Positions 5,750 through 63,336 of a stretch of DNA of 64,000 nt are shown here, in pieces. Position numbers and translations under genes: made by a program. Origin of the DNA: Amphiscolops sp. MND2022. Lineage: Eukaryota. Location: contig OZ076409.1 of assembly GCA_964187785.1 (NCBI GenBank), forward strand, positions 18,788,001 to 18,852,000, given 5' to 3'. Position 1 is the stretch's first letter. Each line of letters begins with the position of its first letter. A model generated the notes under the pieces. It was not told the DNA's origin, did not search any database, and saw only the letters and a program-made list of their open reading frames with translations.

Positions 5750-6492
5750 TGTAACGTGCGGCTAGCAGCGCACATCTAGGAAGAGGGACAATGCCTAAGG
5801 TTATTAAACAGGCGACCGTTGTCTTACTTCATCCATAGGCACTAGTTTTTGTTCCAAAAATGGTCTCCTAGGGGGACTTTTCTTGCGTCTAAGGAGGCTC
5901 CTATAGTTAGAGCTCCGAGGCGACGTTCCAGCACTCTCAAAGTCCGAAGACGCCCCAGAAGCCTGTAAAAACAAATCCTAAGGTTTCTAACGTGTTCCCG
6001 CAACTTCTACATACTTCCGAGGTCAAAAACGGAGGTTTATGCAAATTGCATTTTATTAGGGGAATAAGTTCTAAAATACAGATCTAGTAGATCGAACACC
6101 ACCAAATACCTGCAAAAACCACAAATACAGTACAACAGACTAGGAAAACATCAAGCGTCAGTGTCAGCGCGTCTTGGGCTTGCGCGGTGGCACATGCAAA
6201 CGATGCAATCTTCTGAGTTTCTCCATCCTTTGGGCCATTCTTCGGGTTTCGCTGTTATCTGGGACGTCTTCCGAGGGTGATGGCACCGCACTGCGATTTC
6301 GGGGATACTTTTATGGCGGGCTGTTCTCTCTCGGGCTGGGTCTGGCTCTGTTCTGCCTTTATTTTTGCTTCCTCTACGGTTTTCGTACCTGCCGGGTCGG
6401 CCATCTTGAATGTGCTTGTTTGATATCGCACATTTCGAATTTTTGATCGAAATTTTCAAAAACTTCTGCAATGTCCCTTGCCTGACGTTACT
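5750..6492. repeat. LTR-like direct repeat, copy 2
   Basis: TGTAACGTG...GACGTTACT, matches 1453-2199. Confidence 0.8.
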
Positions 6493-22000: not shown

Positions 22001-25000
22001 AATGCAATATAGATTCCGAATTGAGGCCGAGAATCTGAAAAGACAGCCTGATGAAAATATGGAAAGTTACATCCACAGAATAAAAACGTTGGTAGACAAA
22101 GGCTGGCCAACACCGTCAAATGCGAAAACAAGAGGCTATCACAGCATGCGAAAATCAGAGAATTGGGAAGTACAAAGACTACTTCATAAAAGGCTTAATG
22201 CCCCCGGGTCTTAAACAGAAAGCCCATCAAGCAATGATTGAAGATCCCAACAAATCATGGGACGCTTTACAGGCTCTTATCATAAATAAAGATATGAGTT
22301 TAGTTGTGAGTGCCGAAATGTCCGGCTTGCAACCTTCAAGTTCCCAAACTTTAACAGGGACAATGGACGCCCGTTTCACTAACATTGAATGAAATCACCA
22401 ACATGGTGAAAAATCATCAAATCAATGCTACCTATGACCCGAACAACCCAAAAATGAAACAAGACCTTACTAGATTTTGCAACTATTGCAAAAAATCCGG
22501 ACACACAATCAAGTACTGTTGGACCTTGAAAAAGAAGAAAGAAAACGAGGAAAAACCTCCTCCCCAACCAAAAGAAACATATGCGCAAAACTATCCAAGT
22601 CGACCCAAGTCTCCGAATAATAACACATCACAATCGGACAATCGGTCCAACGGCCAAAGAGGCAGAAGTAATAGTCCTTATGTTTCAAATGGCTATCGAA
22701 GCAGAAGTAACAGCTACTCTGGAGCTGTTCGGTTCGAAGCAAGGCCTGACAAGGTGAATTCTTTGTATGACACTCTGCAGTCATGCAATCCTTTAAACTA
22801 ATCAAGTCTCCGAATCAACAAAGTGAGGAATCAAATGAAACCCCTCACATTCCAACTGCTGGAACGTCCGGCCAACATTTTTATATAGAATTATTTCAAT
22901 ACGCCGTCGGAGACAAAAATAAAAATAATGGCCTTAGCACCCAATTTCTCATAGATACTGGCGCAACGTGCTCCATTATCAACCGTGAGACATTCACTGA
23001 GATTAACAAAATTCAGCCTTTAAATGTAACGCCTCTCGAGAAATCGCCTTTAGCTGCTAATGGACACGCAATGCCAATGAAAGGGAAAACTATTATTCAG
23101 TCTGCGTTTGACGTAGAATATTCTTGTGTGATCGAACACACTGTTTATGTGTCTGATTCCCCCGAGGCGAGAATGAACATTCTTGGAATGGATTTTTTGG
23201 CAAATTTTGGTGAATTCATTAACTTGAGAAATCCAATGCTAATTTTAACGGTCTTCCCCGGCAAATGTGTTAAACTGTCACCTTATTTAGACAAGCCTTT
23301 ACCCTACTTCTCCCAGGTTAATTCAGTAGAATTGACTCAAGACATTACAATTGCACCGTATTCGACCCGAGTTTTGAGTTTAATTGCTAGAGATGAAGAT
23401 AAACATTTGTTCAAACAGGGAACAAGTTTCCGTTTACACCAAGACATTTTAGATACTGGCATTTACACGTATCACGTGTATTGCTCACAAGACGAGTCGA
23501 AATATCCTTTAATGCTGAACAATCCGAACCCGAATAGTATTACTATTCGTAAAGGAATTCTTGGATACACATTGCTCGACAGCGTCCAAGAGACCTCGCA
23601 ATTGATGAGTGTCGTTGACAATGTCGCTTTCATTGAGTATCTCAAAACTTCTGAGTCTCAATGGAACAAGGATTTACACGTTTGTTCGACCGAACCGTAT
23701 ATTTATTCCTTAACGGAAATTGATTCACGGAAACAAATGGCCGAAAGCGCTATTTCGCAAAATGAACTGGCTACTGATTTCTCCAATGAGGTGAAATCAT
23801 TACAACCGAAAATGCCCAAAATTGCTTTCGATATTAAAAGGAAACAACTCGACGATGAATTTTACGCCGAGTTTAGTCCCGCCGAACGCAACTTTTTAGA
23901 AAAGTTCGACTTTTCTGAATCTGATATAAATGACCGTGAATTACAACATCTTCTCCGAGTTTTAGTTGAAAACAATGACGTGTTTTCAAAATTTACTTAT
24001 GATGTTGGAAAAATCACACAAGCATTTCATGTACAATTGAAGAAAAACGCCGAATTACGAAAACAAAGGCCCTCAAAAGTCCCTCTGCACTACAGAGACC
24101 GACTTGAAATTCTTCTGAATGAACTGCAACGAGCTGGAATCATTCGAGAAATGGGAAATGATGTGGAAATGGGTTCCCTATTCACAAACCCTATCATCAT
24201 TTTACCAAAAGGAGATACCGTGAAGCTTGTGATTGACGCACGTTATCTTAACTCAATCACTGACTTGACTAACTACTCATGGCCCCTTGAACCAGTACAA
24301 ATGTTACTGACACGACTTGATGGAGTTTATTACACAACGAGTGATTTAGCTTCCGCCTATAACCAAGTACCCCTCACCGAGGATACGAAGAAGTTGACAA
24401 GCTTTATTGTTGGTGGAAAACAGTACATGTTCGAACGAGGATTCTATGGTCTTTGCGGACTACCAAACTTCTTCAGTCGGATAATGACTATTCATTTCGC
24501 TGAAATGATAGCCAAGAAACAAGTGATAACATATATTGATGATGTTATCTTACAGGGAAAAACCAAACAAGAAATGTGGAATAATTTGGATTCATACTTC
24601 AAGTGCTTGAGATCATCAGGTCTGAAAGCTGCACCGAACAAAACAAAACTGTTCTTGAGGAAAGTTCAGTTTCTTGGACACATTGTTTCCGACAAAGGAA
24701 TCCAGCCAGTAGCCAAAAAGGTACAAGATTTGAAAAACCTGAAAAGCCCTGAGAACAAAAGAGATGTAATGCGCATCTTAGGAAGTTTAGGTTTCTACAG
24801 CACTGTCGAGCCCCACTGTGTGGGCCGGCTTTGAAGGACCTTTCGAAGTTGATTGTCGGTTTTCGGTGTCTGCCTTACTTATGACAGCCATCATTAAGTC
24901 CTTCAGTTGACTAAACTCATTTTGTAACTCGTTTATCTTTCTTTCATAACTCTCTTTTATTTCAGACAACTGAGACGAGATATCAGAAGTTTCGTTACTA

Positions 25001-28000
25001 TCGGAGTCATTGGCAGAGGACTGAGCCATGTCTGGATCCGTTGGAACAGGTGTTTCTAACGAGGAACTAATAATTCTTCCGCTTCTGAGTTCAGTGCCTA
25101 GATCTGGGTTCATAGAGATGGGAGAAAAGAATTATGAGTGAAGACTGGATTATCTGAGATGTTATTGCGATGTATTTTTGCTATTTTATCTGATTTTACG
25201 ATCTCTAATTCACTAAGTTTGAACAGAGATGTTTTATCGATGACTAGTACAAATAAACAAGTCGTAAAGAAAGTAGCAGGAAATTAGTAAGGTGAATAGG
25301 AAAGTTCATCCAATGTTCATCGCAGTTGTAAGTGCGTCAAAAGAAATTACTCAGTTTTAGTATTATAGTTTCTGAAGATGAAAATGAGATGTATTTTCGA
25401 GTAAAATTCGACGTGGGGTGTTCAACTGGATAGTAGCTTGTCGCAATTTCGGTCTCAGTAATCGCTAATGGCGGTCCAAAATACAGCAGTTCACGTGTCT
25501 TTTCAGGCTGGTAAGACGCTAATCTCTTACCAGCCTCTTCTCATTGGCTGTTACCACTGGTGTTAAAATGGTAAGTCACGTGACCGGTGTTGTGAACTGC
25601 CGCAAAGTGGCCACGCACCATGGCACATCTACATGTGTTAATGGCGTTTAGTCATCAATTTACAGTGTCGCAATTGCCTGCACATAACATCATGGTTTCT
25701 ATAGTAATTAAAATGGACTCAAATTATTCAATAACGCACAAATTTCAAGCAAATTTAGAGTAAAGCACACTTTGGGATGGGAAAACGATGTTTTCCGCTG
25801 ATTCTAGCACCAAAATCAATGATTTAAAACTCGAAGATGGAAATGCGATGAACTTGTAAGAATATTCGCTGATTTCCAAGTATAGTTTAGCTCTGGATGA
25901 AAATGCGATGAATGGTAGTCTTTCTCGCTCGGAAATCAACACTATTTAAAATGACGATGATAAAAGGATGAACTCTCTTCGAAATGAACGATTTCCAGCA
26001 CAATTTAAATCGACGATGGTAAAAGGATGAACTCTCCTCGAAAATAGCTAATTTCCAGCACTAGTGAAAATAACGATGAATTCAGGATGAATTCAGTCGA
26101 TAAAACAGGTGAAACAACTAATTCTACAGTAAAGACAAATATACGATGACTTTAGGATGAATACATTCAATAAAACAGCAAAATCTAATGAATCGAATTC
26201 CAACGATGAGTTTAGGATGAACTCAACTGAAAATTTGGCTAATTCTAGCGCAAGTTGAACTAGCGATGAATTTACGATGAACTTGTGTAATAAATCTGCC
26301 AAATGTAGTGCGAACTAATTTTACAATGAACTAGTGATGAATTAGTCTAATAAAACAGATATCCAGCACTTCACTCTTTTTTAGGATGAATTAAGGATGT
26401 ACTTTCTCATTTCTTATTGTTACTAGTCAGGACGATGAAATATAGATGTGTTATGCTCTTTTAAGAAATGAGAAGCATATTGAAGGTTAATAATCACAAA
26501 ACGGCGATGAGTATGGGATGGTTTTCATGCATTTTAAAGTCCCGTGAGATCCGCTGATGGATCATTAAATGAAATCAAATAAATGTCCCAATTTTTGTTC
26601 ACCCGCAATCTTGGCGATGTGATTGCGATGAACTTTGATAATATAGCACTGTAATTTCACTAGTAAGTCAAGCTGAAGGATCACTAAGTCCGCTGATGGA
26701 TTAGTGATGAACTCTTTCTGAAATTCGTCACGACTACAAGCCCTGAGGCGGGGAGCTAGTAGAAGTTACAGGTTTCATTATTTCTACATCTCTCGGTCCA
26801 GTCTGACCGGAAAACTTCTCTCCCTTGTCGTGACAAACCAATATTGAATAAGATAGCACATTAAAGGCCATTGGCAAGATCATTTGTGCGGACACCGGAA
26901 CTAGAGCGCTCAGTATTAAGTAAATATATATAGCTCAAACTCAGGGGGGATAGGGATTAAGGTACAAGTAACGTAGGGTTGCTCACAACCATGGCTCTTA
27001 TTATATGACATCATATTGCCCATATCTAAGTACATAAGACATAATATTTACATTACAGATATTTAGTAGATTATATTTCCATCATGCTGGCATGACACTC
27101 CCCGGGGCGGGATTTGGACTGAGAGTGCAGGGGCCAAATGTGCAGAGGATGGTTGTCTCGGCGTTGGCTTCGACTGGTCCTTCGTTTGGTTGGGGAGAAA
27201 ATGGCCTTCGTTAGTTCTGAACTGGCATGTCCTTCGTTTGTTCTGTCCTGTGAGAGCTTCTCCGAGAAGAGGACCTTCGGTAATCGTCTTTTCTGGCATC
27301 ATCCTGGGTGATTTCGGTTAAAATTTTCGACGCGGCAACTCTAATTCTTGGTCCATCGAATGTCCGCTGATCTGCATTTTATTGATTGTCATGCTTTTGA
27401 CGGGAGTTTCGGCTGGTTATTTTCGGTAGAAGCTGATTTCTCGGAGAAAAGTTTCCCTCCAAAACGCCTACGCTGAATAAACAATTCGATTAGCTTCATT
27501 GACAAATTGGCAGCGAGTCGGGGATGAATGAACGATGAATTGTTTGCTCAGCGAGACATCGATGCTGGTTTAGCGGAATGGCTGGCGCCGTTGCTTTGTT
27601 TACTCGCGATGGAAAGGAGATGAATCGTCGTCATAGCAACTGCCAAAAGTTACTTCCGCTGCTCGACTTTTGAGTGAATGAGAAAGAGATGAATTCGTCG
27701 CCATAGCAACTGTTGCCCGATCTGATTGGCTGAGACTGAATTTATAACTGAAGGAAATTACAACCGGTTGTCAGCAGCATTCTCATCCATAAATCATCCT
27801 CCATTCAAGTCGGTTTGAAAATCGCCACGATTTCCTTTTGCGCGTTTTCCGCTCAACTTCGTCGGTATTGATCTGAGACTGGCAGCTGTCAACAAATCAA
27901 ATACTTGAAGTTTTTTGTCAAGTCCTAGGAGAGGACGATCCATTTTTCAGAGAAAGCTTGAGTTGGCTGTACTGAGAAGAAAAGTGATGTCAGTATTTGA

Positions 28001-31000
28001 AATCGGAGAATTTTTTATCGATTTTTCATCTTCTGAATCCAAGTATTTGATTAACATGGCATTCAAGCTGCGTCGCGCCCTTTGAAATCTTCTATTGAAT
28101 TTGTTCTTCCGTAATCATGGTTGATCAGGCCATTTAATTACTGATCAAATTCTCTGTTCCTGGATTCTTCGATTTCTTTCCTTCTTTCACCTTCTTCCAT
28201 TCTTTTCAGATTGTTTCTGCAATTTCTTCTTCGAGTGCGAGATGTCTGATATTCATTCAGTTCATTCGTTACCTGAGACCGAGGCCACAGAAAGTAAGTG
28301 CACTATTTTTTCTCTTCTTCACAAACGGGTTAGGGACAATCAATTACTTAAGACGCACCCTTGCTTTTAGCTGATTCAGTCCACTCAGTGGGCGTCGTTT
28401 CCGAACTGACGACTCTAGAGACAGTGCCGCCACAAGCAGCTCCAGTCACTCAAGAGGTGAATCCTGAGTTGACTCCAGCTCCGAACGTCCCTTATTATCC
28501 GCAGTGTAAGTACTTATCCATCCAGAATTTCAATCCAGTCCGCGATCCTCTCGTTCTCATCCCTGTCCAATCTAGCAACTAACTCTCTCCGTTCGATGTT
28601 TAGATTACTATCCCTGGTACTCCACCCTTGGTAGTATCACCTTCGGGTGGTACGACCAGCATATGAGAGACATGCTGCGGGATAGCATTCTTCAATACAG
28701 TGAGTTGGCCAATTTTCATCTCCGTTTACTAGGGCGTCGTCCAGACATTGCGATGTAATTCCGATATTTTCTATCTCATCTTCATGTAATGTCTTTTGCG
28801 GTCGGTTTGCCATTTAATGTATTATAGGGATGAATTTGAGATGAATTAAGGGTATTTGATTCCCTTTTTGAACGATATTTTGCATTCTCCATTCAGGGAT
28901 GGATTTGTGATGAAGTTTTCGTCAATCTTCTTTCTTCACGCGTTATACGCGCACTTTCTTCTCAGGCCCATTTCTGTTTGAGTGTTATTTTTGTAGGCCC
29001 TACTCCGATTCATGCGCCCGTCCCACGTCCCATCGTGTATTCGATCGGGATTGGGACCAGTGACTACCCAGACGAGGGCGTAACTGTCAACACCTCCGGA
29101 GGGCCACCACAACTGAACGTCTCGTCGTTCCTCGACGACCTGACTGCCGCCGATACCAGTTCTCCAGTCAGGCGGACGTCGGTTCCGGTGTTGTCGCCGA
29201 TTTTGCAGCGAACTTTCTCAATTGTCAGTCCACGCCGTCCCCGACTTACTATTGAGTCGGGTGTCAATGCTGTCGTCTGCTGCAGTGACGTTTCTTTGAG
29301 TGCCTGTGTAGATACTGCGGACAAGGAGGTCCAAGCCGTTATTGAGACTGCTGATGGTTCCACATGTTATGAACCCCAGGTGGAGACTTCCCTGTCTGCT
29401 TCTCCTCCAGTCGTCGATGATACTGAACTGCTCACCCCTGATGCCAATCAGACTGCTACTTTTGCTTCTGTTCACTCTGAGGCGATCATTCCTGAGGATC
29501 CTGCCATCGGAACAGGGACTTTTTCTGACGTTCCAGCAGGCATCACGATTGCTGATCCCTCGTCTGCCGCACTTGATTCGGAGACAGTTCCACTTCAGCT
29601 GGAGCTTGAGCTTGCAGTGACTTCTCCGATGGGGCCTAGCCTACTAGACTCAGACGATGAGCCAATTGCTTCCCATCTCCCAGGTTACCTAAACAGCTTT
29701 AAAACATGTGAAGTATCTGATCAGTACCTGCATTCATTCATTTTCCTTTTTTTCATTCTTGCTAGCAATTCAGATTTTTCGTCTTTTTCATCTATTTTCC
29801 ATCGTTTTAGTTCTTTCCGCTGTTCATTTTTGCAAGTTATGTTTTTTCATCATTTTCTCATCGTTAAAGGTTTTCAAACATGGCGTTTTTCTCTTTTGTC
29901 TTGCATTCTAGCTATTTTAGCCACTTTTCATCTCTTTTACATCCTTAAAATTTTCTTTTTCGTTTTGGCTATTTTTCAGTGTTTTCTTTTCAGTTTACAT
30001 CCCCTTTTCATCGTTCAGTTGTTTTCGCTCTACAATATCTCAATTTTGGTTCAAATTCGTTCTACACATCTCTTTTTCATCGTTCGATTTTTTCGTCTTT
30101 AAAAGTTTCAATTTTCATTCTGGTGGTCTGCAAACACATCTCTTTTTCATCTTTTCGTTTTTTCTTCGTTTTTTCGCTTATATTTCCCGATGAAAATATT
30201 ATTTTACATCATTTTTTCATCACTCCGGGTGAGATTTTTGGAAAATTTCAGTGGATTTTCGAATTTTCTTTTTCTGAGGATGTGTAGAGGATGAGTTAGA
30301 CAATTTCCGTTTTCTTTTGATTTCAGGAAAGAAGATTCTCAAGACTGCGTGGTTTGCTCATGCGTATTGTGGATTGGCCCTGGGCTTCGCTAAGGACCAC
30401 CGGACGCGAGAGTCCTATGTCAGGTGTCTCCTGTGCAAGCAGGACGTCAAGATCGCCAGCAGAGGTATCACGACGTTCTGGGAGCACTGTCGGGGCATTC
30501 GTCATCATAGGCTCGATTGCTTGATTCGGCTACGGCGGGGTCTGGCGTTGCGGAAGCGCGATGGGACGCTAATGTCCGAGGCAGAGTCCAAAATGTGTGT
30601 CGCTAGTCTGGCGGGTGAGGCTGTGCCTGCGGTGGAGTTGTGCCCGAACCTGAGCGTTGCGGAGGTTCTGCGAGCCGAGCTGGACGGCAGATCTGCATGG
30701 GGCGAGAGTCAGGAAGCCGAAGACGAGATGCAGACCGAAAGTGTGCGGCTATTTGTATGTTTAGTGATCGATGCAATCTACCGTGACTGCAATTTCACAA
30801 GTGTGCAGCATTTGTGGGATTTAATGGTTGCATCAAACTCCCGACATTCGGCTCTGTTTGGCGCGTTTTGCCGAGATAGCGACGTTCTGGTTATTATGAT
30901 TTTTCGTACTACTATATGTGGTTTACATGTTACATGTTTTCGGTTTATGTGAACAATTTCATGAATATTTACAATTTTGGGTGAGGGGTACACATTTTTA

Positions 31001-34000
31001 GAGTCTCTTTTTTTGTTTTGAGTATTTTCGTAATTGGTTGTATGGGTTTGTACCGAGTTTTGGACGATGTGTTTTGGATGGATTCGATGTTGTTGTTTTA
31101 GCGTGTGGTGCTTGTGGGACTCTGGCCATACGTTATGCGCCGGATGATCAATGTGTGGACCGAGACCGAGTTTACGAGTTTCAGTGTCGCCATTGTTGCC
31201 GGAAGAGTGGTGGGGTCAGTGACCGTATGCACGCCAGAAAAACCTATGAGCTACGTTGTGTTCTCATTTATCTATGCTCAGGGGTGGGAACGTCGCGTGG
31301 TTTCATGGGTCGTGGACACGCTTTGTTGCGCTGTCGGGCAAGTTGCACCAGTTGGTGTGAATTGCAAATTGATGCCAGGCCTCGAGAATGTTTTGGCGAG
31401 CAGTACTGGACAAGGAACTGTGACAGTTGTCCCTTTGCGTCTGGTGAAGATCAATAAGACCCTCGTGGATGTCAGTGTACGAGTGATGGGCGGTATTGAT
31501 GTTCACACGATGTTAAATCACCTTCAGACGAGGTTGAAAGAATTCATGGACGACCCTATCATCTTGGCTTGTCCCAAGTTACTGCAGGTAATTTTGGTAC
31601 TTAACAGTAGACTGTTTGGTTTCTATGTACATGTGTTTAGCTGGTATGTGGTTTATTGGCAATTTTTATATATTTTTCACGTGTTGATTTCAGTCTGTGC
31701 TCGACGGTGAGGTCACCTTGTGGGACGTTCCGGACGTGTTGGTCGAGCTTTGTGAGAACTGGTCCGGGGTCACCATGTTGCTGCGAGTGCCTAGCCGATC
31801 CGGAATGGTCGATTCATTGGATTTGGTTCTGTGTGGCGATGTTAGCTTGCCGTTGCGGTTGCATGCTTTAGCGGTTGTTTTTCGTGCTCGTTAGTATGTT
31901 TTATATGTTTTGCGTGGAGAATGTCTAAACAGTAAAGTTGCATGGGTAGGAACGGGAGGGGGGGTAGTGTTGGTTAACGTGGGTTGGTTTTTGGCGCAAA
32001 GTCCTGAGCAATGTTCGTTTGTTTTAGTTGTAACGTCGTATCAGTGGAGCTTTAGCAGCTGCAGTTTACGCAGTTGTCATTGGGCATTTGAAAGTGCCTC
32101 GTTTGTTCACAAGCTCTTAACTATTCTGGTGGACGATGTGGATCTGCCATCTATCTACAATGTGAGGGCGTGCCTGAATGTCGATGTGGCAAGTCTTGTG
32201 GTGTCGCCTATGAAGGTGGAAGCTCTGAGAGGGCAATTCAGACAGTACGAAGAGTGTTTCACGGATCCTGCCGTGTTTGTCAATCATTTCCTGCAAGTAC
32301 AGAATTTCTTACTGGAGGTGGTTGCAGAAGTGCTCATTGTGGACGGGATGAGGGAGGAAGTTACCTTCCACTTGAGTGTCTGTTGTCCTGCTTTATTGTT
32401 GTCCAGTGACGTTGCAGTGTTAACAGAAGAGATGTCGCTGTTTACAGGACTGCTGTTTGATCTAAATCGCGTGACTGCCGTCGAGAGAGCGCGTATGGAA
32501 CAAAGTTTCCCCTCGTTCCTAGAACGATTTAGGAGTCTGGCAACCGATGTGTCGGTCCATGATGCTGGTTCCGCAGTGGAACTTTTCCGAGTGTGCAACA
32601 GTGTTTCGATGCGCAAGCTGATGCGTTATTTGATGTGCCTCAACGAAAGTCCTCTGTTGCCAGTGGGTGCCGCATGTGTGGAGGTGGGCCAACTTAGTGG
32701 TGACGTTACGACGAGTGTGTGTGCGAGCATCCTAAGTTTCTTGAAGTCGCAGTCAGTGAGAACGTATGAAAGTGTCAGCGGGCCTCTACTAGAGGAAGTC
32801 TGTGAGTCATTCGGGCGTCTCACCGTGTTGTCAGAGCTGACGGAAGAAATGCTCTGGGACGATGTGGGTGTGGTTGCCGCCGAAGACTATAGACAGTCTC
32901 TTTACGAACTGGTAGGCTACACCGCTGAGGGGGAGAGAGCACCAAGTCCCGAGATATGAGAGTACTGATGCTGAAACTTTGTCTTTTATACATACTGATG
33001 ATTTTATATGTGGTATTTGTATTATTATAGATAGCAATTAGTTTAGTTGTGGGTGGCCAAATGGACATGTCGTTTTAAGTGACATGAATGAATAAAAGAA
33101 AAAACACTGCGTCGGAAAAATCGGCAGTGTACTATGTACAAGTTAAAGATTTGGCACCTGAATTTGTTTTTCACCTGAGTTTCTAGTGAGTGGGAATGCA
33201 GGCAGAGTTCGGCTGTGGTCGCATTATGTGTTTCGTGATATAGTTTGCGTTAAATGGCAGTTCTATTTTCATTTGTCATCGTATTCACATCGTTTTAAAT
33301 TTATTCGGAGTTTTTGATGGTTTTTGTCACGGTGTTCATCATTATTATATCTCGTGCAAATGTAGGTAATTGGACAGCGCTTCGTGTGGACCTTTCATCT
33401 CACATTCATCACGTTTTCTTCAGTCGGCCGAGCGACGTCGTGGAAACTGTTTTTGTCATCGTTTTTACATCGTTTGTTATATGCGATTTATTGCATGTTT
33501 GTTACATGTGATTTTTCTACATAGTTCATCGTTTTTTCATCTTGCCTTTGAATTTTTGCATTTTTGCTAGTTTTTTGGTGTAATTCATCGTTTTTGCATC
33601 GCAAGTTTGACTTGGCAAGTTTTTTGCTCATTTTGTTGTATAGTTCATCTTCTTTTTATCGTGGTTTTGAAGTGTACGAATTTTTGCGTGTTTTCGATGT
33701 TATTTGGCTATAACGTAATCGGGGGTTGCATTTTTCATGTCTGGGAGAAATTATTATTAATATTGCGTTGTTTCGAAGTATTTTTTCATGTATTTTAGCG
33801 TTATACGGTTATAACCGTTTGTCGTGTTTTGAATTTGCATGAATTTTGTGGTACATGTGTTTTGATCATCGTCGTCATGTTTCGAATTTGTCAACTACGG
33901 AACGTCATTGCATGTATTTTTATTTCGAGTTCTTGTGACCGCCGCTTGCGTGGCAGTCGAAGATAATTTCACTCAGCAGTGGTACTGATAGCCTGTAGGC

Positions 34001-37000
34001 GTGCAAGGTACTAGTGGCTTCAGTCCAAAGCTGGGTGAGTGGAGCTGCTCCGCTGCTTTCAGATGAATGGAATCTCGTAGTTTCGGGCTATATATAGTCT
34101 ATATGTCATTTTTTCGGTTGGTTGTTTGCCATTATTCGTCGAAATGGGTTTGTCCATTTGACGGTCAGTCCGATCAATTAATATGATTGACAACTACGGT
34201 TATGCATGTGTCCAGTTTTAGACTATCTGTTTCTTGTATTTGCATGTATGGGTTGTTACATGATGTGTTCTTTTAAATGGGTTGCCCCATTATTGACATG
34301 TCGTTATATGTTCGGTGTTAGTTTCATGTTTTTAATTTTATTTTCGTTCATTTGGACAGGGCTTTGTCGTCACAAAGCCCCTACAAAACTAACTGAGAAT
34401 CCACTAGCCGCTGGATAACCAACGCAGCAAGCTTCATCCGAATATGGTTGTGAGCTCCCCGCCTCAACTAACCAGCACTCTTTTCAGAGAAATGCCAGCC
34501 AGCACGAAGGAATGTTTTTGGCTTATCGATAGGGGTGTCTTGGTTGTTATGAACTGATGTTTGCTGGGGGGTGCTCACTCCTTTGTTAGTTTTGTAGGTG
34601 TTTCGTCAGTTCTTATATTTTGCATGTAAGTTAGTAGGCTTCATGTATTTTCGATTGTTTGTTTCATTTTTATTCGTCTAGGTTTGGATGGTTTTGGTGT
34701 GAATTGCATATATTATCTCATTCATTTTTAAACGGTACATGTATATTTCCGTGCGTGGCTCATTTGTATTGCATGTAGTTTGGAATTGTTAATTTCTTTC
34801 GTGACGTCATTGATTTGGCAGGTCTTTGAACCGTACATGTATTGATCATTTCATTTTTGTGTCGCATAATTCTATTTGCATGATTCGAAATAAGGTCGGC
34901 TGTTTTTATCGTTTCGTGGAGTTACATGTTTGTTTGAGAATTAGCTGATTTGTTGTGATGTTATGTTGATGGTGTTTCCCATCACAAAAAGGTTTTGGTA
35001 AGTCATTTAATATTTTCGAACTTCCATTTAGACTAAATTCATCGTTTTGACATCCTCCAGCGAAGCTAGAGTATTGTGTCAGGATAACGATAAATTCGGT
35101 CACGATTTGATGGTAGTGTCCATCACAAATTCATCTCGTTGAATGATTTCATGTAGTTTATGAGTAATTGGGTCGGGTTCATCGCTATTTCATCCTCTAG
35201 CCGAGCTAGAGTCTTGTGATAGCATGAACGTGAGTGCGTTCGCATTCTGATGGTAGTTTCCATCTCAAATGCATCGCTATTAAATATTACATGTTGATTG
35301 GTCGAATTTTTGACTGAGTTCATCACCTTTTCATCTCTGAGGTAAATTTTCATGTGATTTCATCCTTTTTTCATCTCGAAATTTTTATGGTTTGTTTTTT
35401 TCTGGTTTTTTGATCGTTTTTCATCCGTTTTACATCGCGTTTTGTTTGTATGCGTTTTTCATGTGATTTTTAGTAACTTTTCATCCATTTTACATCTTCA
35501 TGTGTTTTTTAATTTAAAATTGCATGTAACTAACTGGTTTTTGTGACCTTTTCATCCTTAACACATCGTGTGTTTGGAAATGTGGTTTTTCATGGCTAAA
35601 TCGCTACGTCTACTTTGTTGGTCTTTCTCAGAGAGTTTCTAGCTGATGTAATCTCATGAATAAGGAAGTCAGGATATTTTTTCGGTGTAGGGTTCTCGCG
35701 TAACCTGTACCTACTTTGATTTGATCTAGACGGTCTAGAACTCATCCTTTCTTCATCTTTATTTTGCGTGTTTGTCTGTTGTGACTGATTTTCGTGTTGT
35801 TCGTCTCTCAGAGGTACTCTTATCCTACTCTCATCGCGGGGAGGCGGTAGAATAATTTCTTCTCGCGTTCCAAATCTAACTGTAGGTGGTCTAAAGTTGT
35901 TGTGGTCAGTTTCTACTTGTTGATATTCTATTCTCGTGGTTATTTCTGGTGGAAATACTTGTGGACTGTGTCGCTCTTGTACTGGTGGAACTATTTCTGC
36001 TGAAGGTTCATCTTCGACTAAGTCTTGATCTAGATTGTCGTTCTCGTTCTGATCTACGTCGTCGGTTGTCGGAATATTCGAATCGAATATGTCCGTGTCT
36101 TCAACCCTTTCAGTGTCTGGGTAAAGATGCTTGGACACGTTGATGTCATCAATCGGAAATTCCGGTTTGAACAATCTCAGTCGCATGCGATGTACGCACT
36201 GAGTTTGGTGTGTGCCTACTTTGCGGATGATGTAGTTGCTATCGGATATTGCATTTCATCACCTTGTACGGTCCTTTCCAGTGGAAAGTTTTAAACTCTT
36301 CTTTGCTTCTCTGAGAGTCGTACTTAGGGTCTAGTAGGAATACAAATTCGTTCACCTTCAGTGGTTGTGCTCGTGCTTTTCTATCATAGTACGTTTTGTA
36401 CTTGTGATAGGCGGAAATGATGTTATCTAGATTGTCTCTGAAGATAAAATTCATTTTGTCTAGAATTTCGTTCACGTCCTTGCACTTTGTTTCAGCCGGT
36501 TTGTTTGCGTTTCGGAATTGCAGATCTAGTGAGTTGTATGGTGTTCTTCCGTGGAAAATTTCAGTTGGTGAACATTTCAGTGAATCATGATACGTTGTGT
36601 TATGGGCCATGATTGCTATGTCGACATAGCGGTCCCATTGTGGTCTGTCTGCGTTTACACTAATTTTAAGGATCTTTTTCAATTTCGCGTGCGTTCTCTC
36701 CACCATGCCTATTGTCTGCGCGTGCTTTATCGTGGCATGGGAGATGTGAATATCAGCCGCTTTCGCGATTTCAGACAGAAGTTCAGCCGTGAACGCCGTG
36801 CCCTTGTCCGTCAGAATGTGTTTGGGCACATACGCGTGTTTTGTGAAGATCGACAGTAATCCTCTGACTACGGAATGTGTATCAGGTCTCTTCAGCGGAA
36901 CGGCGAACAGGTAGCGCGAAAAAACGTCAACAGCCGATAGAATGTGTGTAAAACCGTTCGATGCCGGGAGTGGACCAACGATGTCTATTTCCAACAGGTC

Positions 37001-40000
37001 TTCTGGTCCGTCGCACGGGTCGTAGATATTTTGTAACGGTGGACGTAGTTGCGTTTCTTTTACACTTTTAGACTTCATGCAGTTTTCACATCCGTCAAGG
37101 ACTTTTTGAACTTTACAGGCTAAGTTAGGAGAGTAATATCTTTTACGAAGTTCATACAACATTTTCTTTAAACCAGGGTGTCCTTGTACCGGGCTGTTAT
37201 GTAGAGTCCTAATTATTTTTAAAATACAGTCTTCAGGAACAACTAACTGCTTGTGAGACTCCAGTCCCGTGTGACCAAAAAACTGTCTGTACAAGACACC
37301 GTTTACAACTTGTAGGCGTTTTCGGTTTTTGTGCAACTTTTGAAAAAACTGATCTTGCATATTAACTGGGTGTTGCAAAATTTCAGTACCTTCTAAAAAT
37401 CTAATCATTTTTTGAATAACCCAGTTATTTTTCTGGACCTGAATTAGATCGATCCCCTCAGCGGGGCTAACCTGACTCATTACCGGGTGTGATAATGTTA
37501 CTTTACGGATGAATTGCGAGAGTTGAATCGGCTCGTCCACGTCTGTGAGGCGGTACGTCAGATGGTTGTCAGTCGCGAAGTCATCTGAGGCCGCTGTTCT
37601 CTCACAGTTGGTGAACTTCATCCCTTTCCCATCGTCATGAGCCACGTCAGTGCCAGTTGCCAATTTCATCTCTTTGACATCCTTCTGGCGTTTGCATCTG
37701 AGTGGTTCGCTCGCGGGAAAGTAATCAGGCTCGTCTTCCTCCTGTTTTGGTGTACGGGAGGCGATGTCGATCTCGATTCTGTGAATTGGAATAGTATCAG
37801 TCAATTTTAAATGTACACGGTCTTCAGGTCTAATCTCAAGCCGAGATAAGTAATCCGCTGCGGGATTTTCAACTCCTGGTACATGTGCTAGTAAAAAATT
37901 GAACTGAAGGGTTTGGTCACAAAAATTCCAAAGTGAAGGCGGGATATGTTTCGCCTGAAAAAATCTAGTCAAGGCCTTATTGTCAGTCATAACAATGATG
38001 GGTTTTTTCGCACCCCACAAAATGTGGCCAAATTCATCGAAGGCAAAGTGCATAGCTAAAAACTCTTTGGCATACATTGTTAGAGACATCTGGCCGCCCT
38101 GAAATTTCTTAGAGCCAAATGCAACAGGGGCGTATGTATGTTTGACTGACGGGTCTGCATAATCCTCGATTAACAACACATAGCCGGCAGCGTGTTCGCT
38201 GGCGTCACACATGATTACCAATTGTTTATCTGGTAATGGCAATTTCAGGGACACTTTTGTTGCTTTTAACAAACTTTCATTAATTTCAAAAATAGCATCT
38301 TTATGTTGTTGGTTCAGCTTGAAAGGGACGTCTTTCTTGATGAGTTCCTGTAAACAACAAGTTTTATCAGCTAGACGGGGAATATAAGACCTGTAAAAGT
38401 TTACAAAACCAAGATAACGTTGCAACGCTTTCACTGAATTGGGGGGTTTCAAATTGGTTAAATAGTCTGTTACGCGTTTTTCAATGGGAGCAATACCAGT
38501 GCTAGAAATGGTTTTTCCCAAGTACTCGATTTGTTTTTGTCCAAATTCACATTTACTCATGCTAAGTTTAAGACCAGCTTTGTGCAATTGTTGAAAAACA
38601 AGTTCAAGGTTAGTAATCAATTCTTCGGGTGAGTGTGCTGCAATTCCAATATCGTCAACATATTGGGCACAGCGGTCCGCTTTGACCAAGGGGTCCAAAT
38701 ACTCACGGATTACTCCTGTGAATGCTGACAAAGAACGATTAAGACCTTGTTCTAGACGTAAAAATGCAAAAGTTCTAGACCCAAAATTAAACGATAACAG
38801 TTGGACAGATTGCTCATCGGCCATTGGAATGCAATGGTAGGCCTGGGAACAATCAAGTTTGCAGAAGTACTTTTTCCCGGCCATGTGTTGGGCAGCGTCA
38901 GCAATTGTTGTTACGGGATGATTGTGCTCACCGTAATCGTTTTTGATCAGGTGGTTTATTCTTCTCAAGTCAACTAAAATCCTCAATTTACCATTAGGTT
39001 TACGCTGAGCAAATATCGGGGAAGAGTATTTGCTGTGAGGCAAAGTAGTTATAATCCCGTACTCTTGCATTAGAGCTAACTCCACGAGCAAATCGTCCTT
39101 CAAATTTGTCGGAGTCGGGAGACTTTGTGAATAAACACGTTCTTCATGTTGAGGTGTTAACTTAACTTTAATATCAGTGTTCATGCCAATATCAAAACGA
39201 TGTCTAGCAAAAATGGAGTTGTACTTTACCAGCAACTCCTCTACCTGTAACCGTTGAGACGGAGTAAGAAGCGAGTCGTCCCAGTTGAAGTTCTTCAGGA
39301 AGTTCATCCGTTGTTCATCGGATTGGGACGGGTCAAGCTTCTCGAGCTCTCGCAGTGCCAGAATCTCATCATAAATCCGTCGCTCAATTGAGTTGAGTTT
39401 GTCTGGCTCACTGCACGTCTCGGGAGTTGGGTACCACTTGGTTGACTTCATTTCAGGGTTCACGAACAGTTGGTTGATCACTGCTTCGGCTTCATCTGGG
39501 TACTTGGTGATCAAGTTCAAGTGTTCCACTGGCATGGGCGTGATGTTTGCCGCCTGGTGTGGTGTCGGGATGCGAAAGTGTGCCAGAGTGGTGTTGGCTT
39601 CAAGTGTGTACGTGTGGTTGTTTGGGTTGGTGACCTGGATTGTCGTCTTGCCCTCGTCTAGGTCAACCAAAGCTGGAGAAACAAGCAAACACGTCTTTCG
39701 CATGAATCCAGGTGAGCCCTCAACTGTACCAGTTGTAAGTGAGATGTCCGCGTCACTGTGGACCTGTATCATCACTTGATGGAGAGGAGGGATCACTGTT
39801 CTAGTACTGGAACACAAATCAATTAAACCAGTTTTGAATCTGTTGTTCTTTTGCTGTCTAACTTGCATGGACATCATGTGATTAGGGAAGTGGACAAGGT
39901 GGTTTTTGATGTCTAAGTTGACTGAGTACTTTTCAAAAAAGGACATTCCAATTAAAATTGTTCCCATTGTTGGAAGGATTAGGAACGTTTCTTCAAATAC

Positions 40001-43000
40001 TTTTCCAGCAACGTAAAATCTAAGTAAGACTTGCTTACGCACTGGGACTAAATTCCCGTTTGCTATTTGAATTTTGAAATTCGGAGGGGGGAATTCTTGA
40101 AGGATGGCTTCTGGATGAGCCGTTGTTATTTTTCGCAATTCGGCTTCAGACATTGCACTTTGTATTGCGCCTGTGTCTAAAAGTGCGCTGTTTTCGTATT
40201 TGTCAAACTGAAGAGGGACGTAAAGCATTTTATCTTTCTTGTTTAAATGTAAAGTGGGACTGAGAACGTGAATTTCTGTTTTAGTTGCATGTTTTTTAGC
40301 TTTTGAAACGTTAATACTACTCTGTTTTGCATGTTTTTTAATACTAAGCCGTTTGTCGATTGTTGAGTGTGAAGTCGAGTCGTCGTCTAGATGGGTGGTT
40401 TCCATCTCTTTGGCATCATCCACCTGCCTCATGGTGTTTGGTTGCCAGTTCATCGTTTGTTCATCGTTGATTTCAGCGAGTGGAGAAAAGCGGCTGCCGT
40501 TGAGTTGACGTGCATTTCCCATCGCTTTTTCATCGTTGGAAAGTCTTCGCTGATAGACGTCGTCAGCTTTTGGTCGTTTGTCCAGTGAAGGCTGCCATTT
40601 CTTCATTGGACGGTCGTGTGTAGTCGGTTGAGTCGAAAGTCGTTGGTTGCGCGTTGTATTTCTAGCGGGCGGAAATCGTGGCGGAATCAAAAACCCTGAT
40701 TTATGTCTTCATCAGAGTAGCTTTCTTGGTCTTCTTCTTCGGCAACTGCTTGCATAGGGTTCATCGGTTTTTGCTGTCGTTTTAAATCTTGTCTTCTAGT
40801 TTTGTTGTCTTCTTGTGAATTCGTTGCGTATGGAATCTTTCCATATGCAGAACTGCTTTCTTTAGGGACGCGTCGTCTGCAATCCCTTGCTGAGTGGCCT
40901 GTGTAACCGCAAATCTGGCAGACCAATTTTGGATTGTATTTCGGCTTATCTGGATCGGCTGCTTTCTTCATTGGGATTGCATCCTCCTTCTTTATGCCGT
41001 TCGCTTCGTCTCGTTGTCGGGCGCGACATTCCGTTTTGCGGTGTCCTGTCTTTCCGCAGTAAAAACATTGTCCCTCAAATCGTTTTCGTTCTGTCGGTTG
41101 CGTGGTCGTCGTTGTTGTTGTGGGCTTCGTCGTTGTAATCGTAGGTGGTGCTGAGGAGGTGACCGCGTTAAATGGTTGGATTGCCGTAGGTGGCGCGACG
41201 TACTGCTGGTACTGGTATTTTCGCATTAGGTAGGTTTTGATTTCCTCTGGGGAGCTCTCTTCTTTGTTTGCCATAGTGAGCTCTTGTTGAATCTCGACTG
41301 GCAGTTTTCCAAACAAGAACATTTTGATTATTCTGTCGGCCTCATTGCCGAAGGCTTGTTTGGCAGTCTTCTTGAGATTTTTGAGGAAATCTCCGAATGT
41401 TTCTGTTGTGGGATCATAGCGTGCTTGGTCCCATTTGTAACGGGCCACTTCCTTTAGATCCTCTTTTGCAAATTCTTTTCTGAAGAGGTCGAGTACATCC
41501 TTTAGTGTTGTCATTAGCGTTATCTGGATGGATTGCCAGTATTCTATTGCGTCATCTCTCAAAAGGCTTTGAAAGAAGTGTAGTTTGTTCTCCTCGGTGA
41601 TTTTGTTGGCAAGCGGGCTAAGGTGGTTGAGGAGAAGGTGCTCAAATTCGACGAATTTGTCTTTTTGGCCTCTGAAATTTGGCACGTGTGTCTGCAGAAG
41701 CTTCGTGTTGGTGGTTGTGTTTTTGATCCGTTGGGGGATCGTCTCGATTGCATTGAGTAGTCGTTCCTCATTGCTTCTGGGGGTTGATTCTCCCTCTTCG
41801 TCTGAGTCGTCTTCTTGGTATCTGCTGCAGTTGGTGAAGCTGGTTGTCGGGCGGGTGGAGCGGGTTTCTGTTGCTCCTGTCACCATGTCGAGCCCCACTG
41901 TGTGGGCCGGCTTTGAAGGACCTTTCGAAGTTGATTGTCGGTTTTCGGTGTCTGCCTTACTTATGACAGCCATCATTAAGTCCTTCAGTTGACTAAACTC
42001 ATTTTGTAACTCGTTTATCTTTCTTTCATAACTCTCTTTTATTTCAGACAACTGAGACGAGATATCAGAAGTTTCGTTACTATCGGAGTCATTGGCAGAG
42101 GACTGAGCCATGTCTGGATCCGTTGGAACAAGTGTTTCTAACGAGGAACTAATAATTCTTCCGCTTCTGAGTTCAGTGCCTAGATCTGGGTTCATAGAGA
42201 TGGGAGAAAAGAATTATGAGTGAAGACTGGATTATCTGAAATGTTATTGCGATGTATTTTTGCTATTTTATCTGATTTTACGATCTCTAATTCACTAAGT
42301 TTGAACAGAGATGTTTTATCGATGACTAGTACAAATAAACAAGTCGTAAAGAAAGTAGCAGGAAATTAGTAAGGTGAATAGGAAAGTTCATCCAATGTTC
42401 ATCGCAGTTGTAAGTGCGTCAAAAGAAATTACTCAGTTTTAGTATTATAGTTTCTGAAGATGAAAATGAGATGTATTTTCGAGTAAAATTCGACGTGGGG
42501 TGTTCAACTGGATAGTAGCTTGTCGCAATTTCGGTCTCAGTAATCGCTAATGGCGGTCCAAAATACAGCAGTTCACGTGTCTTTTCCGGCTGGTAAGACG
42601 CTAATCTCTTACCAGCCTCTTCTCATTGGCTGTTACCACTGGTGTTAAAATGGTAAGTCACGTGACCGGTGTTGTGAACTGCCGCAAAGTGGCCACGCAC
42701 CATGGCACATCTACATGTGTTAATGGCGTTTAGTCATCAATTTACAGTGTCGCAATTGCCTGCACATAACATCATGGTTTCTATAGTAATTAAAATGGAC
42801 TCAAATTATTCAATAACGCACAAATTTCAAGCAAATTTAGAGTAAAGCACACTTTGGGATGGGAAAACGATGTTTTCCGCTGATTCTAGCACCAAAATCA
42901 ATGATTTAAAACTCGAAGATGGAAATGCGATGAACTTGTAAGAATATTCGCTGATTTCCAAGTATAGTTTAGCTCTGGATGAAAATGCGATGAATGGTAG

Positions 43001-63193: not shown

Positions 63194-63336
63194 TATATGT
63201 CGTGTCATTTTTGTTTACAAATTTTGAAAAAAAAATGTGTAAGTTTAGCGTGAAATTGGCCGAAAGTATCCTGACACTGCGCCGTGAAGTTATTGGTTAT
63301 TTAGCGTGCATTGCTGCGGAGACTAGCTGAGAAGTT

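What the first reader, a model, noticed from the sequence alone, without database searches (positions are those of the whole stretch)
28242..33096. Intact 8-exon antisense gene carried inside a giant Ty3/Gypsy retrotransposon
Seen: between pol and the 3' LTR, on the strand opposite gag-pol, several separate ORFs join through seven GT-AG introns (phases 1,1,1,1,0,0,1) into one open 3147-nt CDS of about 1048 aa, followed by AATAAA. I see no TIRs or TSD marking it as a later insertion. Established: sense-strand introns tend to be lost during retrotransposition, whereas antisense introns are not spliced from the genomic RNA and persist. Inference: this is a stable, selected accessory gene of a young element (LTRs about 99.7% identical by eye), an architecture I do not recognise from described animal Gypsy families.
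Basis: partly seen in the sequence, partly recalled or inferred. Interest (0 to 1): 0.92.

Follow-up and report, generated by a model that had tools for sequence, protein, structure and literature searches.

The report
Spliced backward gene inside animal retrotransposon
A 19-kb jumping gene in an animal genome carries, on the strand opposite its own genes, a real eight-exon gene for an unknown 1048-residue protein, and copies whose polymerase genes are nearly identical hold very different versions of it.

Summary
Window 24804-44179 is a minus-strand Ty3/Gypsy element with 2294-bp LTRs that are 99.7% identical and a 5-bp target duplication. It is nested inside a second, env-bearing Gypsy element. 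Between pol and the 3' LTR, on the plus strand, eight exons (28242-32959) join through seven GT-AG introns (phases 1,1,1,1,0,0,1) into a 3147-nt CDS.

No RNA run was listed, so the support is evolutionary.
- All eight exons and all seven intron positions recur in 13 diverged genomic copies. Donors are GT in 95 of 97 and acceptors AG in 96 of 96.
- 9 of 14 copies give an intact 1045-1052-aa protein.
- dN/dS between versions is 0.06-0.30, with synonymous sites at or near saturation.
- A second Gypsy family (pol 71% identical) carries a 25%-identical homologue in the same place and orientation.

New here: the gene behaves as a swappable cassette. Copies whose pol is 98-99% identical in DNA (dS 0.07-0.12) carry versions only 45-76% identical in protein, some of them mosaic with a switch at intron 4.

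The protein has no Pfam, PDB or fold match. It has a disordered N-terminus, a CxxC...H...H zinc-finger-like motif with a basic patch, and about 650 further residues. Its function is inferred only: probably a nuclear regulator or counter-defence factor.

Antisense accessory genes of this layout are known in plant and fungal Gypsy elements. My searches found none described in animals.

The parts
24799..24803 (.). Target-site duplication AGCAC, left copy
   Evidence: the same 5 bases flank both LTRs
24804..27097 (-). 3' LTR of the element (the element's sense strand is minus), TG..CA ends
   Evidence: 2294 bp, 99.695% identical to 41886-44179; ends
27098..28241 (+). Region between the 3' LTR and the ATG. 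On the minus strand it holds the polypurine tract next to the LTR. On the plus strand it is the presumed promoter and 5' UTR of the antisense gene, with a conserved pyrimidine tract plus CAG acceptor at 28155-28209 that suggests an upstream non-coding exon (inference).
   Evidence: 97-99% identical among four of the five profiled copies at 27751-28250 (82-97% in L035 and L038); acceptor-like tract kept in 9 of 9 copies
28242..28293 (+). Exon 1 (ATG, 17 codons + 1 nt)
28371..28505 (+). Exon 2
   Evidence: dN/dS 0.07-0.21
28604..28699 (+). Exon 3 (conserved aromatic motif)
   Evidence: dN/dS 0.03
28997..29683 (+). Exon 4: Ser/Pro/Thr/Asp-rich, fast-evolving, probably disordered
   Evidence: dN/dS 0.21-0.27; no Pfam
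29684..30326 (+). Intron 4, 643 nt, T-rich; the switch point of the mosaic versions lies at its 3' end
   Evidence: (L036: 94% up to 30250, 70% after)
30327..30889 (+). Exon 5: invariant C-x2-C-x16-H-C-x4-H-x4-C motif, the basic patch [13 protein letters not shown], an acidic linker, and the start of the conserved C-terminal region
   Evidence: invariant columns; zf-BED in 4 of 8 members, best E 0.041, below cut-off
31102..31587 (+). Exon 6: predicted helix, three-stranded beta meander, helix
   Evidence: pLDDT 53.6
31694..31889 (+). Exon 7
   Evidence: collinear with residues 3-47 of the foreign homologue P0022
32028..32959 (+). Exon 8 (309 codons + stop), predicted all-helical, with a conserved C-terminal W..VG.V...YR...LG...G.R..SPEI motif
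33091..33096 (+). AATAAA
   Evidence: present in only 5 of 13 copies within 400 nt of the stop
35596..36255 (-). Sense ORF of 219 codons directly after pol in another frame; in the second family it is fused in frame to pol
36239..40708 (-). pol: protease, RT, RNase H, integrase
40687..41880 (-). gag with two CCHC knuckles
41886..44179 (-). 5' LTR
44180..44184 (.). Target-site duplication AGCAC, right copy

Best explanation
This is a genuine protein-coding accessory gene of a lineage of Ty3/Gypsy retrotransposons in an animal genome. It lies between pol and the 3' LTR and is read from the strand opposite gag-pol.

SHOWN. Because it is antisense, its seven introns are not splice sites in the element's genomic RNA. 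They therefore survive reverse transcription and are inherited by every new copy. The gene encodes about 1048 residues in three parts: a fast-evolving, probably disordered N-terminal third (exons 1-4); a conserved CxxC...H...H zinc-finger-like motif with a basic patch (start of exon 5); and about 650 conserved residues of unknown fold (exons 5-8). Selection acts on the protein. For a sequence present in on the order of a thousand copies, that can only work through the success of the elements that carry it, so the protein serves the element.

SHOWN. The gene has a separate history from the rest of the element. Versions only 45-76% identical in protein, with saturated synonymous sites and diverged introns, sit between flanks and pol that are 93-99% identical. 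Some versions are mosaics joined at intron 4.

INFERRED as the cause: repeated recombination between elements, as happens between co-packaged RNAs during reverse transcription. This moves the cassette, or halves of it, between backbones.

INFERRED, about one chance in three each for the two leading options: the protein works in the nucleus on nucleic acid or chromatin. It acts either as a regulator of the element's own expression, as retroviral antisense and accessory proteins do, or as an antagonist of a host defence. The second option would explain the rapid diversification.
For: Gene structure and conservation
- The 8 exons give a 3147-nt open CDS.
- All 8 exons map end to end in L031-L043.
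- Donors are GT in 95 of 97 and acceptors AG in 96 of 96.
- The spliced CDS is intact in 9 of 14 copies, at 1045-1052 aa.
- dN/dS is 0.06-0.30 for the whole CDS and 0.03-0.27 for exons 2-8 against the diverged versions, with dS from about 1 to saturated.
- Within the young subfamily the nonsynonymous:synonymous ratio is 229:134 = 1.7 against 3.25 expected at random. Exon divergence is 0.59% against 1.21% for introns.

Belongs to the element
- 40 of 40 scored DNA matches are full length.
- 33 of 40 pol-ascertained copies have the gene at the expected place.
- 5 of 5 pol-ascertained copies that I fetched blind carry it.
- A second family with pol 71% identical has a 23-54%-identical homologue of exons 5-8. 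It is antisense, lies 1.9 kb from the end of pol, and keeps GT/AG at the positions of introns 5-7.
- In a homologue from another organism (P0022, at most 31% identical to anything in this genome), the exon 7 and exon 8 equivalents lie in one ORF and are collinear with the predicted junction.

Cassette behaviour
- Sliding identity is 97-99% in four of the five profiled copies at 27751-28250 (82-97% in L035 and L038), 42-92% for the four non-mosaic versions across 28251-33250, and mostly 93-99% at 33501-37250.
- The 3' part of pol has dS 0.07-0.12 (0.36 in L035) in the same copies whose gene has dS of 1 or more.
- Pol distance does not track gene distance. L038 has the lowest pol dS (0.074) and the lowest exon 8 identity (59%).
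- L036, L037, L039 and L040 have window-type exons 1-4 (92-100%) joined to foreign exons 5-8 (53-73%).

Protein features
- Invariant C33, C36, H53, C54, H59, C64 and a basic patch in exon 5.
- zf-BED appears as a sub-threshold match in 4 of 8 members.
Against: - There is no transcript evidence of any kind. No RNA run was listed, and no spliced or annotated protein of this family exists in the protein collections searched. All 72 and 64 relatives found are unnamed ORF-level calls.
- The AATAAA is not conserved: 5 of 13 copies.
- The function rests on weak cues. No Pfam family passes cut-off for any exon. There is no PDB sequence match. The AlphaFold models have low confidence, pLDDT 41 and 54. 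No fold match appeared: Foldseek best E 0.03 and VIA best Z 3.4.
- Recombination is inferred from discordant divergence over 10-kb stretches. Full-length elements of each version could not be fetched, so breakpoints at the gag/LTR side and a formal recombination test are missing.
- The 13 diverged copies were partly chosen for being open in exon 8 (8 of 13), so the figure of 9 intact out of 14 is not a genome-wide rate.
Confidence: 0.72

Rival explanations
1. The ORF is a passenger: a host gene once transduced into the element and carried along without serving it.
For: Gene transduction by LTR elements is known (PMC7264820, passages read). The protein has no recognisable retroelement domain.
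Against: Transduced genes sit in one or a few copies (PMC7264820, abstract). Here the gene is in 40 of 40 and 33 of 40 copies examined and in a second family with 71%-identical pol. A useless passenger would decay, yet dN/dS is 0.06-0.30 across versions with saturated dS. No stand-alone host copy was seen among the hits inspected.
Confidence: 0.06
2. The working product is the antisense RNA itself (double-stranded RNA with the genomic RNA, or a small-RNA source that limits the element's copy number), and the open frame is secondary.
For: Non-coding antisense transcripts of retrotransposons are known, for example micropia and TART (PMC7264820, passages read). An antisense transcript over 5 kb of the element would pair with the genomic RNA.
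Against: An RNA-only function does not explain codon-level constraint (dN/dS 0.06-0.30), intact 1045-1052-aa frames at 45% identity, or conserved splice sites. Both functions could coexist.
Confidence: 0.07
3. The gene region is so divergent because it mutates faster than the rest of the element, not because of recombination. A candidate cause is editing of the double-stranded RNA formed with the antisense transcript, copied into new insertions.
For: The diverged stretch coincides roughly with the predicted transcript, from intron 1 to a few hundred bases past the stop.
Against: The substitution spectrum in the gene region is balanced: A-G 295, C-T 371, and all four transversion classes 99-174, with ts/tv 1.2. 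It is similar in kind to the backbone (ts/tv 1.6-1.8), not the one-type bias expected of ADAR or APOBEC editing. Mosaic versions with a sharp switch at intron 4 are the signature of recombination. Near-identical copies within each version (96-100%) show no ongoing hypermutation.
Confidence: 0.08
4. The region is an unrelated mobile element (for instance a DNA transposon with its own multi-exon gene) that inserted into an ancestor of this family.
For: The CxxC...H...H motif gives weak zf-BED matches. BED fingers are common in hAT transposases (recalled). Exon 6 is predicted to have a beta-beta-beta-alpha unit, which RNase H-like folds also have (the comparison is my reading).
Against: No terminal inverted repeats or duplication bracket it. 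No transposase family passes in Pfam. No fold match to any transposase appeared (inconclusive given low model confidence). It is present in two Gypsy families in the same place, so any such capture would be ancient and the gene has since belonged to the element.
Confidence: 0.05

Closest known systems
Antisense additional ORFs between pol and 3' LTR (aORF-3R) of plant Ty3/Gypsy elements: maize Grande gene23, rice RIRE2, Silene Retand (TRP28 domain), Phaseolus PvRetro13 (PMC7264820 and PMC11963269, abstracts and passages read)
   Same: Same place (pol to 3' LTR) and same orientation. [quoted passage not shown] The function is unknown, with a nuclear or DNA-binding role suspected. Grande gene23 has its own promoter upstream.
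   Different: There is no sequence relation: no TRP28 (PF04195) or other Pfam hit. The host is an animal. The gene here is far larger (1048 aa) and is split by seven conserved introns; neither paper's text contains the word 'intron'. Deep divergence of versions inside one backbone is not reported in the passages I read.
brtn, the antisense gene of Boty-like Gypsy elements of Botrytis cinerea (Zhao et al. 2011, Virology 417:248). Seen only as a citation and in passages of PMC8365987 and PMC7264820, and as the closest-known entry in earlier notes of this scan on fungal elements.
   Same: An antisense extra gene of a Gypsy element behind pol. According to the scan's earlier notes, the fungal versions also carry introns.
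   Different: It is a fungal host and, by those notes, small cysteine-cluster proteins. I did not have the brtn sequence, so homology was not tested. No Zn2Cys6 (PF00172) or DUF3716 match was seen in the Pfam scans of the exons.
Antisense genes of deltaretroviruses (HTLV-1 HBZ, HTLV-2 APH-2)
   Same: A protein-coding gene on the minus strand of a reverse-transcribing element, sited towards the 3' LTR. The products are nuclear and regulate the virus (PMC11963269, passages). That HBZ has a spliced form starting in the 3' LTR is my recall. Here a conserved acceptor just upstream of the ATG hints at a similar upstream exon (inference).
   Different: There is no sequence similarity (not tested directly; no bZIP or other Pfam hit). 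HBZ is small with one intron, against seven coding introns and 1048 aa here.
Giant Gypsy-like Burro elements of planarians and other giant retroelements with accessory ORFs (PMC6431247, passages read)
   Same: An oversized animal Gypsy element whose extra length comes from accessory coding capacity. Mononegavirus-like fusion glycoproteins are reported there; here one lies in the outer element of this window.
   Different: The extra domains of Burro are in the sense polyprotein or in sense ORFs. The review text has no occurrence of 'antisense'.

Membership tests
Ty3/Gypsy LTR retrotransposon (the carrier) | Two LTRs with TG..CA ends, a target-site duplication, and a primer-binding site next to the 5' LTR | tested here: met
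   2294-bp LTRs 99.695% identical, AGCAC duplication, TGG-starting site after the 5' LTR
Ty3/Gypsy LTR retrotransposon (the carrier) | gag with CCHC; pol in the order protease, RT, RNase H, integrase | tested here: met
   zf-CCHC; gag-asp_proteas at residues 166-259 (below cut-off), RVT_1 569-734, RT_RNaseH 826-930, Integrase_H2C2 1157-1215, rve 1235-1325
Antisense accessory ORF between pol and 3' LTR (aORF-3R class) | Lies between pol and the 3' LTR on the strand opposite gag-pol | tested here: met
   gene at 28242-32959 (+); pol at 36239-40708 (-); 3' LTR at 24804-27097
Antisense accessory ORF between pol and 3' LTR (aORF-3R class) | Present in all or most copies of the family, not in one or a few | tested here: met
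   40 of 40; 33 of 40 pol-ascertained copies, 7 not examined, none shown to lack it
Antisense accessory ORF between pol and 3' LTR (aORF-3R class) | Transcribed from its own promoter in antisense | not testable with these tools
   no RNA run listed
Retand/Grande-type aORF proteins | TRP28 (PF04195) domain | tested here: not met
   no such hit in any exon at E up to 0.01-10
brtn of Boty-like elements | Sequence similarity to brtn | not tested
BED-type zinc finger | Cx2C...Hx3-5H spacing with upstream aromatic residues, and a match to the Pfam zf-BED model | tested here: inconclusive
   invariant W8, F9, C33, C36, H53, H59 (C-x2-C-x16-H-x5-H); zf-BED in 4 of 8 members, best E 0.041, below cut-off; DUF7830 in 5 of 8, best E 0.0079, below cut-off
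hAT-like or other DDE transposase | RNase H-like catalytic core and hAT dimerisation domain | tested here: inconclusive
   No Pfam hit. The exon 6 model shows a beta-beta-beta-alpha unit, but pLDDT is 53.6. There is no Foldseek match at E<=0.001, and the VIA best Z is 3.4.

The most novel reading that the evidence does not exclude
One animal Gypsy family exists as many 'types' that differ only in a backward-facing, spliced gene. The gene would be the element's specificity or counter-defence module. It would be kept polymorphic by selection that favours rare versions (an arms race with a host factor, or interference between elements). Recombination at the cassette borders and in intron 4 would shuffle it, whole or in halves, between near-identical backbones. 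That would be the retrotransposon counterpart of env or accessory-gene swapping in retroviruses, run with an intron-bearing gene that only an antisense position can preserve.
Probability: 0.3. Interest if true: 0.86.

Novelty: new variant of a known kind. Interest (0 to 1): 0.74.

Why it matters
Antisense accessory genes of LTR retrotransposons are a little-understood class, described so far in plants and fungi. This case extends the class to an animal, with three further points:
- The gene is unusually complex: eight coding exons and seven introns conserved down to 25% protein identity.
- The protein family is an orphan with no known domain.
- Copy number is on the order of a thousand. First-look candidates were 518 to 1796, which are lower bounds or rough counts.

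The contrast between a near-uniform backbone and versions of the gene as low as 45% identical makes it a natural system for two questions: what an element-encoded accessory protein does, and whether transposons maintain diversity in the way viruses do.

There is also a practical point. Gene finders will call these loci as host genes, with good introns and strong conservation, which would inflate gene counts in such genomes.

Tried and rejected
- RNA evidence: no RNA holder was listed for 28242-33096.
- Annotated or spliced relatives: searches of longer proteins with exon 8 and exon 5 found none. The exhaustive profile search found only unnamed ORF-level pieces of 367 aa or less.
- Function by similarity:
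  - Pfam found nothing for all exons, nothing above cut-off for exon 5 at lenient settings, and nothing for a 15-member exon 8 set beyond one DUF3213 hit at E 0.014 in 1 of 15.
  - PDB profile searches gave only E>1 rows.
  - In the ESM Atlas, exon 8 gave weak look-alikes among helical-repeat proteins (INTS2, MMS22L; recognition 1425, below the useful range). Exon 6 gave no usable hit.
- Structure: exon 8 gave pLDDT 41 and exon 6 gave pLDDT 53.6. Foldseek found no match at E<=0.001, and VIA-wide gave a best Z of 3.4. My lead that exons 5-7 form a dead hAT-like RNase H core is therefore unsupported and is kept only as a rival.
- Folding a longer stretch by reading through an in-frame intron (L035 intron 5, 147 nt) failed, because the intron has four stops.
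- Terminal inverted repeats: only short chance-level pairs were found.
- Hypermutation as the cause of divergence was rejected on the substitution spectrum.
- The alternative exon 5 donor at 30754 was rejected on conservation of residues 467-511.
- Earlier notes of this scan held nothing for this genome or this sequence.

Full report
WHAT IS THERE

The window holds two nested LTR elements.

The inner one spans 24804-44179 on the minus strand. Its two 2294-bp LTRs are 99.695% identical. They end in TG..CA and are flanked by the 5-bp duplication AGCAC, and a TGG-starting primer-binding site follows the 5' LTR. Gag (40687-41880) has CCHC knuckles. Pol (36239-40708) has protease, RT, RNase H and integrase in Gypsy order.

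The inner element sits inside the pol gene of an outer plus-strand Gypsy-like element. That element has LTRs at 20542-21046 and 51527-52032 (99.4% identical) and the duplication CTAT. Its env-like ORF matches the Pfam family Monjiviricetes_fusion.

The host is an animal by one test. There are ten matches over cut-off to the nuclear-receptor ligand-binding domain and none to the fungal Zn_clus domain. That the former family is confined to animals is my recall.

THE OBSERVATION

The exons are 28242-28293, 28371-28505, 28604-28699, 28997-29683, 30327-30889, 31102-31587, 31694-31889 and 32028-32959. There are seven GT..AG introns with phases 1,1,1,1,0,0,1. The CDS is 3147 nt, 1048 codons plus TGA, without an internal stop. 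AATAAA lies at 33091-33096.

An alternative, shorter exon 5 (donor at 30754) also keeps the frame. The long form is the one conserved at protein level.

No terminal inverted repeats bracket the region.

IS IT A GENE?

No RNA run was listed for the region, so the test had to be evolutionary.

Copies in the genome. The genome (1.07 Gb) holds many copies. All 40 scored DNA matches to 30327-33096 are full length at 96-100% identity, out of 518 first-look candidates. A six-frame search with exon 8 scored 128 of 1021 candidates. They fall into groups at 96-100% (55), 72-76% (30), 69% (7) and 58-60% (36) identity, and 121 of the 128 are open across all of the match.

Exons and splice sites. I fetched eight diverged copies (L031-L038) and later five more found through pol alone (L039-L043). 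In all 13, every one of the eight exons maps, mostly end to end, and in the same order. At the projected boundaries the donor is GT in 95 of 97 readable cases. The two exceptions are both in L033, one of them at a boundary I had extrapolated. The acceptor is AG in 96 of 96 readable cases, usually as TTTYAG.

Intactness. The spliced CDS is intact in 9 of the 14 copies (window included), at 1045-1052 aa. The other five (L032, L033, L035, L037, L040) have a frameshift, a lost donor or a lost start.

Selection. Nei-Gojobori dN/dS between intact versions is 0.06-0.30, with dS from about 1 to saturation. Against the diverged versions, each of exons 2-8 is on its own below 0.3. Within the young window-type subfamily (29 copies compared with the window copy), nonsynonymous to synonymous changes are 229:134 = 1.7 against 3.25 expected at random. 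Exons differ by 0.59% and introns by 1.21%, and exons 5-8 are intact in 22 of 29. These copies are not independent samples.

One junction has outside support. An ORF-level protein from another organism (P0022, at most 31% identical to anything in this genome) carries the exon 7 and exon 8 equivalents in one frame, collinear with the predicted join.

DOES IT BELONG TO THE ELEMENT?

Yes. A search with a pol segment (37000-38500) scored 40 of 1576 candidates, all at 98-100% identity. For 33 of these 40 an exon 8 homologue lies at the expected distance and strand. None was shown to lack the gene. The five I could fetch blind all carry it.

A second, much more distant clade of the gene (P0026 type, about 25% identical in exon 8, 1575 candidates) sits in a Gypsy family whose pol is 71% identical to this one. 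It is again antisense and lies 1.9 kb from the end of pol. Its exons 5-8 are homologous, and GT/AG stand at the positions of introns 5, 6 and 7. Its N-terminal part is not recognisably related. The gene is therefore an old, inherited feature of this Gypsy lineage.

THE UNEXPECTED PART: A DIVERGENT CASSETTE IN A UNIFORM BACKBONE

In the very loci where the gene is 45-76% identical in protein, the adjoining integrase end of pol is 92-98% identical in protein, with dS 0.07-0.12 (0.36 in L035). The gene's dS is 1 or more.

A sliding comparison shows the pattern along the element:
- 27751-28250 is 97-99% identical in four of the five profiled copies and 82-97% in L035 and L038.
- Identity drops inside intron 1 to 42-92% for the four non-mosaic versions, and stays there across 28251-33250.
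- It returns to mostly 93-99% between 33500 and 34250, depending on the version. L035 has a gap and L038 a dip further downstream.

Pol distance does not track gene distance. L038 has the smallest pol dS (0.074) and the most diverged exon 8 of L031-L038 (59%). The pol-ascertained copies, with 99%-identical pol DNA, carry the most diverged versions of all, at 45-58% in exon 8.

Four copies are mosaics: L036, L037, L039 and L040. Their exons 1-4 are of the window type (92-100%) and are joined to foreign exons 5-8 (53-73%), with the switch at the 3' end of intron 4.

The substitution spectrum inside the gene is balanced, with all six classes and ts/tv 1.2. Editing-type hypermutation is therefore not the cause.

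The simplest reading is repeated recombination between elements that moves the cassette, or its N- and C-terminal halves, between backbones. I infer this and have not shown it, because full-length elements of each version could not be fetched.

WHAT THE PROTEIN MIGHT DO

Exons 1-4 (about 320 aa) are Ser/Pro/Thr/Asp-rich and fast evolving, with a few invariant short motifs.

Exon 5 opens with invariant W, F, then C-x2-C-x16-H-C-x4-H-x4-C, followed by the basic stretch [13 protein letters not shown]. Four of eight members give sub-threshold zf-BED matches, best E 0.041.

The remaining roughly 650 aa have no Pfam, PDB or Atlas relative. AlphaFold gave an all-helical exon 8 at pLDDT 41, and a helix, beta-meander, helix unit for exon 6 at pLDDT 53.6. 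Neither Foldseek nor VIA placed the exon 6 model; the exon 8 model was too poor to search with.

There is no signal peptide or membrane segment by eye.

I therefore commit only to this: an intracellular, probably nuclear, zinc-dependent nucleic-acid- or chromatin-binding protein that the element needs. Two roles look equally likely. One is a regulator of the element's own expression, as proposed for plant antisense ORFs and known for retroviral antisense proteins (PMC7264820, PMC11963269). The other is an antagonist of a host defence, which would fit the rapid diversification.

COMPARISON WITH WHAT IS KNOWN

The layout (an antisense ORF between pol and the 3' LTR, in most copies, of unknown function) is that of plant aORF-3R genes: Grande gene23, RIRE2, Retand TRP28 and PvRetro13. 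It is also that of brtn in Boty-like elements of Botrytis (PMC7264820, PMC11963269, PMC8365987; abstracts and passages read). Earlier notes of this scan list many fungal Gypsy elements with intron-bearing antisense genes (unchecked by me).

None of these is homologous as far as tested: there is no TRP28, Zn_clus or DUF3716 hit.

I found no description of such a gene in an animal Gypsy element. A review of giant transposons, including planarian Burro, contains no 'antisense'. This is an absence in the open-access library searched, not proof. Steinbauerova et al. 2011 and Zhao et al. 2011 were seen only as citations.

VERDICT

It is a new variant of a known kind: an animal host, eight coding exons, an orphan 1048-aa protein, and a striking cassette-like diversity inside a near-uniform element family.

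Noticed in passing
window 20542-52032: An outer plus-strand Gypsy-like element with 505-506-bp LTRs (99.4% identical) and TSD CTAT, split in its pol by the inner element. It has a gag (21696-22214), pol in two halves (22771-24834 and 44120-47107), an env-like ORF at 47108-49459 matching Pfam Monjiviricetes_fusion (E 5e-35), and a further sense ORF of 453 codons (49862-51223) with no Pfam hit.
   Followed up: partly
window 35596-36255 (-): A 219-codon sense ORF starts right after pol in another frame. The one-base offset is the same in all 8 diverged copies checked. In the second family (L044) the two are one frame. This is either a programmed frameshift or a family-wide shift in a C-terminal extension of integrase.
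   Followed up: partly
window 28155-28209: A 55-nt pyrimidine tract ending in TTTTCAG lies 33 nt upstream of the ATG and is kept in 9 of 9 copies. It looks like the acceptor of a 5'-UTR intron, so the transcript may start further upstream, possibly in or near the 3' LTR.
   Followed up: no
window 25907-26385, 27523-27688, 28829-28840 (and the LTR copy at 42989-43467): The heptamer GATGAAT occurs 22 times inside the element out of 27 in the whole window. It is clustered in the LTR and just upstream of the antisense gene, all on the plus strand. This may be an antisense promoter or a binding-site array.
   Followed up: no
window 25940-26079: A 59-bp tandem repeat, 2.4 copies, inside the LTR.
   Followed up: no
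proteins P0016, P0022, P0029, P0031: Unnamed ORF-level proteins from short contigs of public assemblies are 22-28% identical to exon 8 and share its C-terminal motif. P0022 is at most 31% identical to anything in this genome, so the family exists in at least one other organism. There the exon 7 and 8 equivalents are one ORF.
   Followed up: partly
window 1453-2203 and 5750-6495; 63300-63870: A 750-bp direct repeat pair at 93% identity, 4.3 kb apart, and a block of about 65-130-bp tandem repeats near the right end of the window.
   Followed up: no
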